Virus record (IMG/VR): IMGVR_UViG_3300018080_000009
Location: 32,001 to 96,000 of that record
Direction: 5' to 3' (one strand)
Length of the DNA: 64,000 nt
From: a virus
In this document: positions 27,832-57,789 of the stretch, one piece after another
How positions within the stretch are numbered: position 1 is the first letter of the stretch
Layout: each line of letters opens with the position of its first letter
Notes under the pieces: model-generated
Told to the model about the DNA's origin: nothing
The model's database searches: none
The model's input: only the letters and a program-made list of their open reading frames with translations
Translations under genes and position numbers: made by a program

Positions 27832-28536
27832 ATGAAAACTTTAATGCATTTGTGTCTTTTGTTTCTTTTGGTTTTGTTTCAGTGTTCAGAAGGAGAAATA
27901 GATAGAGATTCCGATACTGATACGGACACAGATACCTATACAGGAGGTGATGTAGATGGAGACTCTGATACTGATACCGATAATGATACTGATAGCGATT
28001 CAGATATGGACACAGATACTGATACCGATTCCGACTCCGACACGGATACAGATACTGACGCAGATATTGATACTGATAGCGACAGTGACAGTGACACGGA
28101 TGTAGACGGAGATACTTGGGTAGATCCAGATACAGGTTTGATGTGGATAACAAGTCCTTGGAATGCTCTTCCGTCACTTTCTCAAGATGATGCCATCTTG
28201 TATTGTCAAAATTTGGATTATGCTGGAAATACAGATTGGAGACTTCCTGATATTGAAGAAATGAGGACGGTAGTAGTAGATTGTCCAGATATTGAGCCAG
28301 AAGGTGATTGTGGAGTGACTGAAGACTGTCTAGAATCTTATTGTGTAGAAGGATGCATTTTTTGTGACGACGGGAATTCTCATCAAGAAGAAGTTTTTGG
28401 AGGACCGTTTATGTACTTGTGGTCTTCGTCTCCAATTCCCGATTGGCCAGAATATGGTTGGACTATGAGCTATGCAAATGCTGGTATTGTTGCTGTAATT
28501 TCTGAGAACCCTTGGTACGTGAGATGTGTCCGTTAA
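27832..28536 (+). CDS. Lipoprotein-like DT/DS-repeat protein with DUF1566 (Lcl C-terminal) domain
   Basis: Signal peptide ending in Cys; (DT/DS)n tract; VDPDTGLMW...AILYC...DWRLPDIEE...WSSS...YVRCVR. Confidence 0.8.
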   Translation: MKTLMHLCLLFLLVLFQCSEGEIDRDSDTDTDTDTYTGGDVDGDSDTDTDNDTDSDSDMDTDTDTDSDSDTDTDTDADIDTDSDSDSDTDVDGDTWVDPDTGLMWITSPWNALPSLSQDDAILYCQNLDYAGNTDWRLPDIEEMRTVVVDCPDIEPEGDCGVTEDCLESYCVEGCIFCDDGNSHQEEVFGGPFMYLWSSSPIPDWPEYGWTMSYANAGIVAVISENPWYVRCVR

Positions 28537-35527: not shown

Positions 35528-35600
35528 GCCTCTGTAGCTCAGTTGGTAGAGCACCTGACTTGTAATCAGGGGACCGAGGGTTCGATTCCTTCCAGAGGCT
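35528..35600 (+). tRNA. tRNA-Thr(TGT)
   Basis: Full cloverleaf; GCCTCTG/CAGAGGC acceptor, CCTGA-CT TGT AA-TCAGG, TTCGATT T-loop. Confidence 0.92.
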
Positions 35601-35787: not shown

Positions 35788-35858
35788 GGGACATTAGCCA
35801 TCGGGGAAGGCACCAGATTGTCGATCTGGCAAGGTGAGTTCGAGTCTCATATGTCCCG
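35788..35858 (+). tRNA. tRNA-Asp(GTC)
   Basis: GGGACAT/ATGTCCC acceptor, CCAGA-TT GTC GA-TCTGG, GTGAG TTCGAGT CTCAT. Confidence 0.85.
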
Positions 35859-35860
35859 CA

Positions 35861-53771: not shown

Positions 53772-54422
53772 ATGGCAACCACAAAGAAGAAAACCGTCAA
53801 GAAAACCACAGCAAAGAAATCAGTCAAAAAGACTGTAGCCAAGAAACCAACTGACAAGAAAGTGTCTTCCGAGAAGACAACAGCCAAGAAGGCTGATCCT
53901 AAGAAACCCGTCAAAGAAAAGGTGGCTCCGGTGAAGATCGATATTTTTGCCAAGCACCATTTATTTTCGGTAAAGCTGCCGAAGGGTACAGAGGTTACCA
54001 GAAGAAGCAGAAGGCCGGTAGTAGCCGTTGTTGCTTTGGTTCATGCTGACGGCCATCAAGGAGTTGTTCAGTGGACCAGCAACCTGTCCAGAGCCCGTTT
54101 TGTGGCTAAGGAACATGAGGATCGATCCAAGGATGGCGGAAAAGGTTACGCCAAGGCTTTTGGCAAGAAACCCCCGAAATGGTTTCAAGAGCATGGTGCA
54201 CCGGTTGAGGTGAAGATCCTGACTGAGGTTAAGGATCTCGGTGAAGCTCCAGAGGAAGTTAAGGAGAAAGCTCCGAGAGCAAAGAAAAATAAGAAATCAG
54301 TTCCAGTCGATGACATCTTCAAGACCAAAATTCAAGCCGAGAAAGCAGCAAAGGCTCTGAAGCTGAATCCGGAAAAAGTCATTTCCAAAGTAGACGAGGG
54401 TTGGAAGGTATCTTTGCCCTAG
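53772..54422 (+). CDS. Lys-rich protein with histone H1-like N-terminal repeats
   Basis: TKKKTVKKTTAKKSVKKTVAKK... Confidence 0.6.
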   Translation: MATTKKKTVKKTTAKKSVKKTVAKKPTDKKVSSEKTTAKKADPKKPVKEKVAPVKIDIFAKHHLFSVKLPKGTEVTRRSRRPVVAVVALVHADGHQGVVQWTSNLSRARFVAKEHEDRSKDGGKGYAKAFGKKPPKWFQEHGAPVEVKILTEVKDLGEAPEEVKEKAPRAKKNKKSVPVDDIFKTKIQAEKAAKALKLNPEKVISKVDEGWKVSLP

Positions 54423-55176: not shown

Positions 55177-55526
55177 ATGATCCCTCTTACAGGAAAATTG
55201 CCTCCAGATGGGAACTAGTTGAGACAAGGGCAGACGGGTCTTCTTGGATAAATCGCAAGAAGAAGCTTTATGTCATTGGTTCAATTGCAGTTGAGCAAGA
55301 TGGAAAGAGATGGTTGCACTTGTCGATGTCTCATCAGAAGAGAATTACGAATTATGAAGAGCTTACGTATCTAAAGAGACATTGGGCAGGAGATGACAGA
55401 AAATGTATAATGGTACTTCCAGCTAAGAAAGAGCATGTGAATATCCATCCAAATGTACTGCATTTGTTCTGTTGTCTAGATGAAGACCCATTACCAGATT
55501 TTACTCGTGGATTGGGTATGATCTGA
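55177..55526 (+). pseudogene. Frameshifted conserved-type phage gene (WLHLS...HVNIHPNVLHL family)
   Basis: ATG at 55177 gives MIPLTGKLPPD then stops; a -1 shift near 55208 continues WELVETRADG...WLHLSMSH. Confidence 0.55.
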
Positions 55527-55554: not shown

Positions 55555-56202
55555 ATGAAAGTAAGACTTACATTGGTAGAAGAAATGCTGGGAACCTCGT
55601 GTTCGAATCCCGAGGTGCATGAGGAATTCATTGCCAGCAAGAGTGCAGACAAGGTGAAAATCAAAGAGGAGCTTGAAGCTCTTCCAGCCGAAGTGTTGAT
55701 AGAGAAATCCTTGACGATTTTTCCACGAGATGAAAATGGAAATCCATTCCTCTATGATTATCAGATCAGGGGATTCTTGAAGAATTTCCTAGGAACGAAG
55801 GTTGAGTTTGGACCATTGGTGCTGAAGGTAGGTAAGAAGGATTATAAGTTTTCGAAATGGACCTACAAACGTCTTGTTGATAACTATGTCTTTGTCAAGC
55901 CGCGGAGGATCAAGTTGAACATGCCAGAAGGAAGTGAAGTTAGTTTCTGTACACGTCCACTAAGAGCTGAGACAATGAAGGGTGAGAGGGTGGCTTTAGC
56001 TACATCAGAAGCTGTCCCAGCAGGAACGACATTTGAATTCGAGATAAGGTGTCTTCAGCCAGAACTGTATGATTTGATGCCAGAAGCTCTAGACTACGGT
56101 GAATTCAATGGATTGCTTCAATGGAGGAATTCGGGAAAAGGTACCTTCACTTGGGAGGATCTAGATGAGCAAAAAGTCGAGGAAAGCAAGAAATCGGCGT
56201 AA
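55555..56202 (+). CDS. Stand-alone RAMP/Cas7-like (Csm3-type fold) protein
   Basis: MKVRLTL..EMLG, P.LY...IRGFLK, FV.P..I, RPLR, SEAVPAGTTFEFEI, terminal G-rich loop YG..NGLLQWRNSGKGTF. Confidence 0.7.
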   Translation: MKVRLTLVEEMLGTSCSNPEVHEEFIASKSADKVKIKEELEALPAEVLIEKSLTIFPRDENGNPFLYDYQIRGFLKNFLGTKVEFGPLVLKVGKKDYKFSKWTYKRLVDNYVFVKPRRIKLNMPEGSEVSFCTRPLRAETMKGERVALATSEAVPAGTTFEFEIRCLQPELYDLMPEALDYGEFNGLLQWRNSGKGTFTWEDLDEQKVEESKKSA

Positions 56203-56335
56203 AAGAAGACAAGAAAAGGATTTTCTCAAGAATGGTTCCAAACCCAGACACAAATCGAAAAGTGGACGTACTGGAAAGATTCAAAGTACTAAGAACAAGT
56301 CCCTGAATGATAGAGCACAACGAAAAAAGAAGTAA
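56165..56335 (+). CDS. 56-aa Arg/Lys-rich peptide overlapping the RAMP gene 3' end
   Basis: GGAGG upstream; MSKKSRKARNRRKRRQEKDFLKNGSKPRHKSKSGRTGKIQSTKNKSLNDRAQRKKK*. Confidence 0.45.
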   Translation: MSKKSRKARNRRKRRQEKDFLKNGSKPRHKSKSGRTGKIQSTKNKSLNDRAQRKKK

Positions 56336-56340
56336 AAGAG

Positions 56341-56880
56341 AAGTTATGTGCAGTTCTGTAAGGGAACGGTGCTGAATCATCAAGTATGATTCCGTAATGG
56401 TAATGAAAGGAAGAGCATATCAACGTCTTGTATCGGAAGGGTACTGTTCAGCTTAGTTATGAAGTGTATAGGTACTGATGAGTCTTGTGTGATTTTGTAG
56501 GGGAAGAGTACAGATGCGTATTTATGAGAGGGGTAACGTCCAGGTGTAGTTGAGCAGTTTGGAGTTATGGAGTGGCGCGGTAAAGTTGCGTTCTGGTATG
56601 GTCCTGTGAAGTCATGTAAAGGATACGTATTGAACTGTTATATAGGGTCCAGATATGGTCTGGTATGGTGACGAGAATATCCGTAGAGGATGTGAGGCGT
56701 TTGGTAAAGTTATGTCACGTCAAGGAACTGAAAAGTCATGTTTGATTTAGTAGTGGCGTGGTCGGGTCTGGTGCTGGCATGTACGATGGGGTCTAGTGGA
56801 GGCGCTGTGTTATTCGGTAGTGAAGTGTCCCGTTGGGCACAGGAAGAGTGCTGCGTTGAAGTGTGAGAAAGGGACTTGTG
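56341..56880 (+). repeat. Non-coding array with 5-nt periodicity, divided into 5n+1-nt units (candidate guide-RNA array)
   Basis: G (most often GT) every 5 nt; phase advances +1 at 15 GG dinucleotides; no ORF >=60 aa on either strand from 56384 to 57051. Confidence 0.8.
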
Positions 56881-56983
56881 GTTCAATACAGACGTTCCGT
56901 GGGAGGAACAAGGCTTCTGTCTTGTCTCAATTAAAGAAGTCTAGCAAACAAAAGGAGGTAGCAGGGGATAAATAGGTGTGTCC

Positions 56984-57033
56984 GGCATCTGTCTGTGGAG
57001 AGTCAGTAGGTTCGAATCCTACCAGATGCCCCA
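56984..57033 (+). ncRNA. tRNA-like minihelix (acceptor + T arm + CCA)
   Basis: GGCATCTG/CAGATGCC-CCA; GTAGG-TTCGAAT-CCTAC; only 14 nt in place of D and anticodon arms. Confidence 0.65.
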
Positions 57034-57051: not shown

Positions 57052-57789
57052 ATGAAATACAGTCCAAGGGATAGGTGTACAGAAGAAGAATTGGCAATAA
57101 CCAGTATTGATAATGATACTGTCTTTACTGATGCAGTAGTATCGAAAGTGCTTCCTAATGATGTGAAATTTGTAGATGGCTTTCATTTGTTTGTTGAAGA
57201 TGCTGAAAAGTATGTTCAGCCAGATGATACGCTTCGATTATATGGCCAAGGTATTGGTCATGTTGTAAGAGGAGTGGCGGTAGTCAAAGAAAATGGGAAG
57301 ATAGAAGTATTGAGATATAAAACTCCTCTAGAGTCTGCCACAGAAGACTGTAAACGGTTTGAGGAAAACGATAGAAAGCGTGAAGAACAAGCTGAGAAGA
57401 TACGTAAACAAGTTGATGTTGATCAGCCTCCCAAGTTTAAGTGTAAGGATCTAGATGCTTGGAAGACCTGGGTGAAGAATAATCTTGAGCCCTATGGTCG
57501 TGCAGTAATTGTGTATGCTGAAAGATGGGCTGTACTGATGGAAAAGAAGATGGCTGAGGGTGCGACTCTAAAAGACATTGCCAAAGATACAAGTCACGAA
57601 GCAGACACAGATGGGATCACTGGATTCATGTATGGTGCAGCCATAGCTACACTTGTTGGAACGTGGGAACATGGAGAAGAGCTGAGAAAATGGCATAATC
57701 TAGATATGCAGATGGGAGACGAGGGTGAGAAAGCCAATGAAGAAGGTGGAGTATTGAATCCTGCTTGTTTGAGTATCAGCAGTTACTAA
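57052..57789 (+). CDS. Hypothetical phage protein
   Basis: RBS AAGGAG; GITGFMYGAA...WEHGEELRKWHN. Confidence 0.6.
   Translation: MKYSPRDRCTEEELAITSIDNDTVFTDAVVSKVLPNDVKFVDGFHLFVEDAEKYVQPDDTLRLYGQGIGHVVRGVAVVKENGKIEVLRYKTPLESATEDCKRFEENDRKREEQAEKIRKQVDVDQPPKFKCKDLDAWKTWVKNNLEPYGRAVIVYAERWAVLMEKKMAEGATLKDIAKDTSHEADTDGITGFMYGAAIATLVGTWEHGEELRKWHNLDMQMGDEGEKANEEGGVLNPACLSISSY

What the first reader, a model, noticed from the sequence alone, without database searches (positions are those of the whole stretch)
55555..56880. Solo RAMP/Cas7-like gene plus a pentamer-periodic non-coding array: candidate non-CRISPR RNA-guided system
Seen: the 215-aa protein has the RAMP layout (N-terminal strand, IRGFLK helix, EAVPAGTTFEFEI strand, terminal G-rich loop GLLQWRNSGKGTF). 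No cas1/2/3/5/6/10 genes and no CRISPR direct repeats occur in the window. About 140 nt downstream lies a long ORF-free gap in an otherwise densely coded window, filled by a 5-nt-periodic array (next finding). Established: Cas7/Csm3 RAMPs polymerise along guide RNA with a fixed nucleotide step per subunit. Inference: each pentamer is one subunit footprint, the constant G(T) is protein-bound, the variable bases encode a gapped target, and each 5n+1 unit is one guide. A plausible role is against competing phages or host loci. I recall a recent report of phage RAMP plus GGY/NN-repeat RNA systems (VIPR), which I cannot verify here. This locus would be a divergent NGT-type relative with concatenated units.
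Basis: partly seen in the sequence, partly recalled or inferred. Interest (0 to 1): 0.97.

Follow-up and report, generated by a model that had tools for sequence, protein, structure and literature searches.

The report
Phage VIPR system with staggered guides
A complete 104-kb uncultured phage carries a lone Cas7-like protein gene followed by sixteen abutting guide units written in a five-base code. It is a well-supported new example of the VIPR RNA-guided DNA-silencing systems first described in 2026 preprints, and what its guides target is still unknown.

Summary
Both halves of the observation hold.

- **Array:** 56338-56882 (+) lies in the largest ORF-free gap of the window. It has a strong 5-nt G periodicity (z = 8.1 against dinucleotide shuffles, + strand only). 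It parses into 16 abutting units of 5n+1 nt (26-46 nt), and every register change is +1 at a GG junction.
- **Synteny:** 78 of 80 homologous viral loci (42-60% identity) carry the same kind of array beside the gene, on the gene's strand. No other neighbouring gene is conserved.
- **Context:** the genome has no Cas1 gene, and the window has no CRISPR repeats.

This matches the VIPR systems of bioRxiv 10.64898/2026.04.26.720920. That preprint already describes YNNNG repeat variants and 'staggered' arrays whose guides overlap by 1 nt. A later preprint reports WGT/NN motifs. The sequence link to the validated SUSP1 Vipr is weak (hhalign about 77%, E 2e-5), but G-loop motifs, topology and nearest structural neighbours are shared.

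Verdict: new member of a known kind. Targets, processing and reading rule remain untested. The scan has noted VIPR loci before on other DNA (161 notes, at least 112 genomes).

The parts
55555..56202 (+). vipr gene: stand-alone Cas7-like RAMP, 215 aa
56203..56337 (+). A-rich linker or leader between vipr and the array; no terminator-like site on the + strand
   Evidence: Sequence. The promoter and terminator scan finds nothing convincing on the + strand. A 56-aa, very basic ORF (56165-56335) with a GGAGG 6 nt before its ATG lies here. It has no relative in 87 related loci and no Pfam hit, so its reality is uncertain.
56338..56882 (+). staggered vrRNA-like array: 16 abutting units of 5-9 pentamers (N-G-Y-N-N), each 5n+1 nt, joined at G|G
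   Evidence: Unit starts: 56338, 56364, 56400, 56436, 56472, 56503, 56544, 56570, 56596, 56622, 56658, 56689, 56725, 56756, 56802, 56843. In a 53-pentamer subset taken from uninterrupted chains of 5 or more periodic G, the base after the fixed G is T in 57% and C in 9%. The last pentamer of each unit is semi-constant: T at the next position in 13 of 15 and A after it in 9 of 15.

Best explanation
This is a VIPR (Viral Interference Programmable Repeat) module of a complete 104-kb phage with direct terminal repeats. It consists of a vipr gene for a minimal Cas7-like RAMP and, 136 nt downstream on the same strand, a staggered array of 16 short guide units.

The mechanism is inferred from the characterised SUSP1 system. 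The array is transcribed with or after vipr. One Vipr protomer binds each pentamer and flips out the fixed G and the pyrimidine after it. The variable bases are then presented to pair with double-stranded DNA in a gapped register. The resulting filament blocks transcription of a competitor element or host gene.

Three features are particular to this family. Only one G of the canonical GGY is fixed (N-G-Y/NN). The guides are short (5-9 pentamers). Each guide is delimited by a +1 register shift at a conserved junction rather than by a long structured tail. That junction reads GYAAnG|G in the family and GTAwwG|G here. No accessory (vap) gene travels with the module.

Shown here: the fold, the periodic grammar, family-wide synteny and strand bias, and the absence of Cas1, of a Pfam-detectable RAMP and of CRISPR repeats. 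Inferred: transcription, RNP formation, DNA targeting, the skip rule and the biological target.

For: 2. Array. The 5-nt G periodicity has z 8.1, is + strand only and slips only by +1.

3. Synteny. Of 80 IMG/VR loci encoding 42-60% identical proteins, 78 have at least 2 chains of 6 or more periodic G within about 1.5 kb of the gene on its strand. The counts are 916 chains near the gene, 85 elsewhere on that strand and 87 on the other strand. Human-faecal phage records show the same pattern.

4. Grammar is family-wide. The register shift between successive chains is +1 in 637 of 832 cases. The junction motif is GCAAnG|G[C/A]A, and units have 4-9 pentamers with a mode of 6.

5. Only vipr is conserved across 88 loci.

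6. Literature. VIPR is a Vipr RAMP plus pentamer vrRNAs, mostly in phages. Repeat variants NNNGG, YNNNG and NNNNG, and staggered arrays of guides overlapping by 1 nt, are described. WGT/NN and TGH/NN motifs next to Vipr-like folds are also reported.

7. Link to a validated Vipr. The SUSP1 locus was recovered in KT454805 with its GGY/NN tracts. hhalign of our family against SUSP1 Vipr gives 76% probability and E 2e-5 over the full length. Profile against profile gives 79% and E 1.7e-5 on the G-loop. The aligned motif is G..G..[D/Q]-W-R..G.F. The SUSP1-type model (pLDDT 95) has the same order of elements. Its five best BFVD neighbours are the same five proteins as ours, including a 44%-identical member of our family.

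8. Protein and repeat vary together. The two SUSP1 residues that read the first G (H17, D177) align to T14 and Q189 here. The residues that hold the second G and the pyrimidine (W178, R179) are kept as W190 and R191. This matches a repeat in which only the second G and the pyrimidine are fixed.
Against: 1. The sequence relation to validated Vipr is weak. hhalign probability is below 80%. The best cross-family HMM hit is 17.8 bits, E 4e-5, in a set of 386 proteins. The middle of the alignment, including the thumb, is unreliable, so residue equivalences outside the G-loop are tentative.

2. I could not confirm that this family is among the preprint's 667 typed systems, because no supplement is held. 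The VIPR type therefore stays unassigned.

3. There is no structured 3' tail or pseudoknot and no vap gene, so it is not a type II system.

4. Guides of 5-9 pentamers would specify only 10-18 bp under the published NN rule. That is little for unique targeting.

5. The pyrimidine after the fixed G is only 66% Y in the window, and 12 of 106 pentamers lack the G, so some units may be decayed.

6. No promoter-like site lies between vipr and the array, and no + strand terminator-like site was found in the region.
Confidence: 0.85

Rival explanations
1. It is a Vipr-like RNP with the same parts but a different reading rule or substrate. For example, three variable bases may be read per pentamer because the first G is not sequestered. 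The skip length may differ. Several abutting units may act together. Or the target may be RNA, as for Csm3 and type VII Cas7.
For: The residues that read the first G in SUSP1 are replaced. The position before the fixed G is nearly unconstrained in the family (A 32, C 15, G 33, T 21%). Units are short, with a mode of 6 pentamers. The closest solved folds are RNA-targeting Csm3 and type VII Cas7. Staggered arrays were not among the architectures the preprint says it confirmed by sRNA-seq.
Against: No rule gave more matches than shuffled guides, so nothing favours an alternative rule either. W and R of the G-loop are kept and the two-helix insertion is present in the model, as in the DNA-binding SUSP1 Vipr. 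All tested VIPR types are reported as DNA-directed.
Confidence: 0.1
2. The tract is a DNA-level element, such as curved DNA, iterons, an origin or a packaging signal. Its position next to the RAMP gene then has no RNA-guide meaning.
For: No expression data could be obtained. No promoter or terminator was found.
Against: The periodic G lies on the gene's strand in 78 of 80 loci, with about ten-fold fewer chains on the other strand. Pentamer content is hypervariable while the G, the pyrimidine and the junction are kept. The array lies upstream in some relatives and downstream in others, but always in the same orientation. The homologous SUSP1 tracts are experimentally RNAs bound by Vipr.
Confidence: 0.03
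3. It is a decayed or orphaned fragment of a CRISPR-Cas type III or VII effector that has no function.
For: The best solved matches are CRISPR Cas7 proteins. The window's repeats are less regular than those of relatives.
Against: The ORF is intact. The family has about 1,600 clusters at 50% identity with invariant G-loop and thumb residues. There is no Cas1 gene and there are no CRISPR repeats. The gene plus array is conserved as a module across at least 78 viral contigs.
Confidence: 0.02

Closest known systems
VIPR systems with staggered vrRNA arrays and YNNNG/NNNNG repeats (bioRxiv 10.64898/2026.04.26.720920, methods and fig. S17-S18 legends)
   Same: A lone small RAMP in a phage. Pentamer repeats with a reduced consensus (here N-G-Y-N-N, which equals YNNNG). 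Abutting guides where the end of one marks the start of the next with a 1-nt overlap (here the G|G junction and 5n+1 units).
   Different: I cannot tell which of the seven types it is, or whether this exact family was in their set. The preprint text does not say that staggered arrays were confirmed by sRNA-seq. The junction motif (GYAAnG|G) and the 4-9-pentamer unit size are measured here and are not taken from the paper.
Type II VIPR of Escherichia phage SUSP1 (Vipr, vap1 and four vrRNAs; same preprint, plus the structures in 10.64898/2026.04.26.720927)
   Same: A RAMP of about 200 aa with RRM core, two-helix insertion, thumb hairpin and G-loop. The G-loop motif G..G..x-W-R..G.F. One protomer per pentamer is expected. 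Phage-borne with flanking non-coding arrays on the gene's strand.
   Different: The sequence relation is only remote (hhalign about 77%). The repeat is GGY/NN there and NGY/NN here, and the residues that read the first G are replaced (H17 to T, D177 to Q). SUSP1 vrRNAs have 9-16 repeats plus a roughly 40-nt pseudoknot tail and are spaced apart. Here there are 5-9 repeats, no tail, and the units abut. SUSP1 has vap1, and no partner gene is conserved here.
Non-canonical VIPR array clusters (WGT/NN, TGH/NN) found by a genomic language model (bioRxiv 10.64898/2026.10.21.760802)
   Same: Period-5 arrays with one degenerate position in the fixed trinucleotide, next to a Vipr-like fold. The window's motif ([G/T/A]-G-T/NN) is of this sort.
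   Different: That paper describes motifs that 'repeated 10 times'. It does not, in the text I read, describe 5n+1 staggering.
Csm3 and type VII Cas7 (CRISPR-Cas type III-A and type VII backbone subunits; e.g. PDB 9ash_F, 6xn3_F, 8z4j)
   Different: 12-19% identity. A 6-nt step and contiguous pairing there. They always sit in cas operons with CRISPR arrays, and neither is present here. This locus is not a member.

Membership tests
VIPR (Vipr + vrRNA) | Not linked to cas genes or a CRISPR array | tested here: met
   No Cas1 and no Pfam RAMP match in the complete 104-kb genome. No CRISPR-like repeats in the window. No conserved neighbouring gene in 88 loci. Only two cas families were searched directly.
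VIPR (Vipr + vrRNA) | Adjacent tandem pentanucleotide repeats (GGY/NN or the published variants), at least 4 units, on the gene's strand | tested here: met
   106 pentamers in 16 units, N-G-Y-N-N (= YNNNG), z 8.1. 78 of 80 homologous loci show the same.
VIPR (Vipr + vrRNA) | Homology to an experimentally validated Vipr | tested here: inconclusive
   hhalign 76-79%, E about 2e-5. Cross-family HMM at best 17.8 bits. Shared G-loop motif and topology. The same five nearest BFVD structures. This supports homology but falls short of a phylogenetic placement.
VIPR (Vipr + vrRNA) | Encoded by a virus or provirus (typical, not obligatory) | tested here: met
   G000 is a virus record with direct terminal repeats and 100% estimated completeness. 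More than 560 IMG/VR stretches encode relatives.
VIPR (Vipr + vrRNA) | vrRNAs are expressed and co-purify with Vipr | not testable with these tools
VIPR (Vipr + vrRNA) | Variable bases match natural dsDNA targets under a gapped (1-nt skip) rule | tested here: inconclusive
   No excess over shuffled guides in the own genome plus 88 loci under nine rules. Exact scans gave 0, 2, 25 and 15 IMG/VR hits and 28 prokaryote hits. Their flanks were unrelated, which is consistent with chance.
VIPR type II (SUSP1-like) | GGY/NN repeats, 9-16 per vrRNA, conserved structured 3' tail, vap1 partner | tested here: not met
   Only one G is fixed. There are 5-9 pentamers per unit and the units abut without a tail. 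There is no conserved partner gene. hhalign of the SUSP1 vap1 protein against the Vipr-family profile finds nothing.
CRISPR-Cas type III / VII Cas7 (Csm3) | Part of a cas operon with a CRISPR repeat-spacer array | tested here: not met
   Fold similarity only.

The most novel reading that the evidence does not exclude
In this very large NGY-type family the first G is no longer read. Guide boundaries are set purely by register. A +1 slip at a GYAAnG|G junction ends one Vipr filament and seeds the next, so a single unprocessed or minimally processed transcript could carry 16 short guides. If the freed position pairs with the target, three bases per pentamer would be read. That would be a different gapped code from the published xNN rule.
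Probability: 0.2. Interest if true: 0.7.

Novelty: new member of a known kind. Interest (0 to 1): 0.45.

Why it matters
VIPR is a months-old class, proposed as a viral forerunner of CRISPR effectors and as a minimal programmable DNA binder. This locus adds no new principle. It does document, with family-wide statistics, an architecture that the preprints mention mainly in figure legends.

- The arrays are staggered, with 5n+1 units and a conserved junction.
- Only one G is fixed in the repeat, and the guides are short.
- No accessory gene travels with the module.
- The family is very large: about 1,600 clusters at 50% identity and hundreds of viral contigs, many from gut samples.

The match between the lost first G of the repeat and the replaced G-reading residues gives a direct, testable handle on how Vipr proteins set their repeat code. 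The neighbouring Tad4-like anti-Thoeris gene suggests that the module sits in a conflict island of the phage.

Tried and rejected
**Family and structure searches**
- Pfam and PHROGs on the protein gave no hit.
- A PDB sequence search gave only a marginal Cas7 G-loop match, E 0.64.
- No VIPR structure is in the PDB copy, so no direct structural comparison with a solved Vipr was possible.

The nearest relatives (69-66% identity, P0002-P0006) could therefore not be fetched. The metagenome scan returned nothing closer than 59%.

**Accessory gene**
- tblastn of 10 flanking ORFs against 87 loci, and all-against-all ORF clustering, found no conserved partner.

**tRNA-like minihelix as a family processing signal**
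- ARAGORN found no tRNA in the 87 loci, and the T-arm motif occurs in one. I rejected it as a family feature.

**Target searches**
- Best-hit mismatches for the 16 units under eight rules, against the own genome plus related loci, were no better than shuffles.
- Gapped seed counts for 529 unique family guides under nine rules showed no excess.
- IMG/VR exact scans:
  - The 9-pentamer unit gave 0 hits.
  - The same unit without its last pentamer gave 2 hits, in unrelated high-GC contigs.
  - Two 8-pentamer units gave 25 and 15 hits. Their flanking proteins are not homologous apart from near-identical contigs. One apparent cluster split into an HNH protein and a RecA-like gene, the latter read out of frame.
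- The prokaryote scan of the 9-pentamer unit gave 28 hits, mostly in high-GC genomes. The only in-frame, wobble-consistent pair is an Alistipes/Rikenellaceae aldose 1-epimerase gene, which I judge a chance match.

**Rejected readings**
- Reading the tract as coding was rejected. A period of 5 is incompatible with codons, and only 42-59-aa ORFs occur there.

**Not sent**
- No complex-prediction job was sent, because an RNA-dependent filament is a poor case for it.

Full report
**Observation**

The ORF at 55555-56202 (+) encodes 215 aa. The sequence that follows it up to the next long ORF (57052) is the largest stretch of the window without a + strand ORF of 70 aa or more. That stretch is 849 nt, and such ORFs cover 91.6% of the window.

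Within it, 56338-56882 shows a strong 5-nt periodicity of G.
- G-G at lag 5 occurs 105 times, against 62.7 +/- 5.2 in 1000 dinucleotide-preserving shuffles (z 8.1). Lag 10 gives z 5.7 and lag 6 gives z 0.7.
- GT-GT at lag 5 occurs 29 times, against 10.7 expected.
- The power spectrum over the whole tract shows nothing at period 5, because the register keeps changing.
- A Viterbi parse that allowed any slip placed only +1 slips.
- A full parse gives 16 abutting units of 26-46 nt. Fifteen are 5n+1 with n = 5-9. The fixed G is present in 94 of 106 pentamers.
- All 15 junctions read G|G. The last pentamer of each unit is semi-constant (GTAww), and the next unit often starts GA.
- Chains of 6 or more periodic G occur 17 times on the + strand of the window. 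Seven of them lie here, and none lies on the - strand.
- The complete genome has no second array.

**The protein**

Pfam and PHROGs give nothing. The family is nevertheless very large. There are 980 hits in the 90%-clustered collection, and 1584 clusters at 50% identity with E <= 0.001.

They are the N-terminal strand, the helix starting at YQIRGFLK, the strand TFEFEIRC, and the G-rich loop 186-197 before the last strand. A long beta-hairpin (130-154) sits where RAMP thumbs sit.

The genome has no Cas1 and no Pfam-detectable RAMP, and the window has no CRISPR-like repeats. It is a virus record with direct terminal repeats, estimated complete.

**Synteny**

Human-faecal phage records and IMG/VR contigs encoding 42-48% identical proteins carry the same kind of tract. 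In some it lies upstream of the gene and in others downstream, always on the gene's strand.

A wider scan with the alignment found more than 560 viral stretches.
- Of the 80 loci kept, 78 have at least 2 chains of 6 or more periodic G next to the gene on its strand.
- The counts are 916 chains near the gene, 85 elsewhere on that strand and 87 on the opposite strand.

The grammar is shared across the family.
- The base after a chain's last G is G in 84% of cases.
- The junction consensus is GCAAnG|G[C/A]A.
- Successive chains differ in register by +1 in 637 of 832 cases.
- Units hold 4-9 pentamers, with a mode of 6.
- In the 60%-identical relative L009, more than a dozen consecutive units end in GCAAAG|G or a close variant.

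Only the RAMP gene is conserved across the 88 loci. None of ten flanking ORFs of the window recurs, apart from one 70-aa ORF in a single locus. The mobile unit is therefore the gene plus its array.

**What is known**

VIPR is described in bioRxiv 10.64898/2026.04.26.720920.
- It pairs a minimal RAMP (Vipr) with vrRNAs made of YNNGG repeats, mostly in phages and proviruses.
- The GGY is sequestered, and the NN pairs with dsDNA while skipping every third base. The result is transcriptional repression of competing elements.
- The methods mention variant repeats NNNGG, YNNNG and NNNNG.
- The fig. S18 legend describes 'staggered' arrays in which vrRNAs derive from 1-nt overlapping positions, so that the end of one marks the start of the next.

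The companion structure paper shows one protomer per repeat. G1 is read by H17 and D177, G2 is held by R138 and W178, and Y3 is held by R179 and others. The skipped target base sits between the thumb and the helical bundle.

A later preprint reports period-5 arrays with WGT/NN or TGH/NN motifs beside Vipr-like folds. Another shows the SUSP1 system deciding the competition between the phage and a satellite.

The window's N-G-Y-N-N pentamers, G|G junctions and 5n+1 units are what these texts describe.

**Link to a validated Vipr**

I recovered the SUSP1 locus in KT454805. A 195-aa gene and a 146-aa gene lie on the - strand, flanked by GGY/NN tracts.
- hhalign of our family profile against the 195-aa protein gives 76% probability and E 2e-5 over the full length.
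- hhalign against the 146-aa protein gives nothing.
- Profile against profile (A2) gives 79% and E 1.7e-5, but only over the C-terminal 47 residues.
- Plain HMM cross-hits are weak.

The aligned G-loop reads G182..G186..Q189-W190-R191..G196.F198 here and G170..G174..D177-W178-R179..G183.F185 in SUSP1.

A model of the SUSP1-type protein (pLDDT 95.2) has the same order of elements. The order is strand, two-helix insertion, strand, helix, strands, thumb hairpin, strand, helix, G-loop, strand. Its five best BFVD neighbours are the same five viral proteins as for our model. They include a 44%-identical member of our family, annotated in UniProt as a RAMP superfamily protein, and two archaeal-virus proteins.

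I read this as remote homology within one viral RAMP group. It is short of a phylogenetic placement. No supplement of the preprint is held, so the VIPR type stays unassigned.

**A consistency argument (inference)**

The two residues that read the first G of GGY in SUSP1 align to T14 and Q189 here. Both are conserved in our family. The residues that stack on the second G and cap the pyrimidine are retained (W190, R191). The repeats of this family have lost exactly the first G. The position before the fixed G is A 32, C 15, G 33, T 21%, whereas the next position is C or T in 63% of cases. The middle of the alignment is unreliable, so I do not assign the equivalent of the thumb arginine.

**Mechanism proposed**

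The array is transcribed in the sense of vipr, and no + strand terminator-like site separates them. Vipr protomers coat each unit, one per pentamer. The fixed G and the pyrimidine are flipped out, and the variable bases read a gapped DNA target. The bound filament represses transcription.

The +1 junction puts the next unit out of register. This would end one filament and start the next, with or without RNA cleavage. All of this is inferred from SUSP1. Staggered arrays are not among the architectures the preprint says it confirmed by sRNA-seq.

Under the published rule, guides of 5-9 pentamers specify only 10-18 bp. This is why the reading rule of this family deserves a direct test.

**Targets**

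I found none.
- Neither the 16 units of the window nor 529 unique guides of the family match the own genome or the 88 loci better than shuffled guides, under any of eight or nine rules.
- Exact gapped scans of IMG/VR gave 0, 2, 25 and 15 hits. The flanks were unrelated, or the hit was out of frame.
- A scan of one genome per prokaryote species with the 9-pentamer unit gave 28 hits, mostly in high-GC genomes.
- One homologous pair of those hits is in frame and differs only at the skipped positions. It lies in an Alistipes/Rikenellaceae aldose 1-epimerase gene.
- With this many chance hits expected, I treat that pair as a coincidence worth a note, not as a target.

**Verdict**

The locus is a new member of a known, very recent class. 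It lies in the staggered, reduced-consensus part of that class, which has been described but, as far as the texts I could read show, not tested at the bench.

The scan itself has noted VIPR loci many times on other DNA: 161 notes in at least 112 genomes. The same stretch was also noted in overlapping windows of this genome.

Noticed in passing
window 56985-57033 (+): tRNA-like minihelix just after the array. It has an acceptor stem, a perfect T-arm (GGTTCGAATCC) and an encoded CCA, but no D or anticodon arms. Rfam tRNA scores 23.3 bits, below the 29-bit cut-off. ARAGORN does not call it. The fold is -18.2 kcal/mol, z -1.8. It is not present next to the arrays of 87 related loci, so it is not a family feature of the VIPR module.
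   Followed up: partly
window 57052-57789 (+): The first gene after the array (245 aa) has a C-terminal domain matching Pfam Tad4, a type I Thoeris inhibitor (E 1e-32, 113 bits, cut-off 25). A likely anti-defence gene therefore sits beside the VIPR module.
   Followed up: no
window 55314-55526 (+); L029 5031-5240: The 70-aa ORF directly upstream of vipr is a DUF7694 protein (E 6e-16). Its only relative among 88 loci (57% identity) lies just beyond the array of L029. Two co-occurrences are too few to call it an accessory gene.
   Followed up: partly
window 56165-56335 (+): A 56-aa, extremely basic ORF overlaps the end of vipr and fills the linker up to the array. A GGAGG lies 6 nt before its ATG. 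It has no relatives in related loci and no Pfam hit. It could be an artefact of the A-rich linker or a small nucleic-acid-binding peptide.
   Followed up: partly
L154 3243-3268 (-) and L167 7114-7139 (-): The 9-pentamer unit (56756-56801), read as NNx, matches residues 33-41 (VRLAHTGLG) of an aldose 1-epimerase gene exactly and in frame. The match occurs in a Rikenellaceae genome and an Alistipes genome, and the two sites differ only at the skipped positions. It is probably chance, given 28 hits in 596 Gb.
   Followed up: partly
window 27883-28113 (+): A 12-nt-period coding repeat that spells runs of Asp-Thr and Asp-Ser.
   Followed up: no
window 35528-35600 and 35788-35859 (+): tRNA-Thr(TGT) and tRNA-Asp(GTC) lie in the second-largest ORF-free gap of the window.
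   Followed up: no
window 53772-54422 (+): A 216-aa protein with a Lys/Ala/Thr-rich N-terminus weakly resembling histone H1-like HC2 (E 4e-4, below cut-off). It may be a DNA-binding protein.
   Followed up: no
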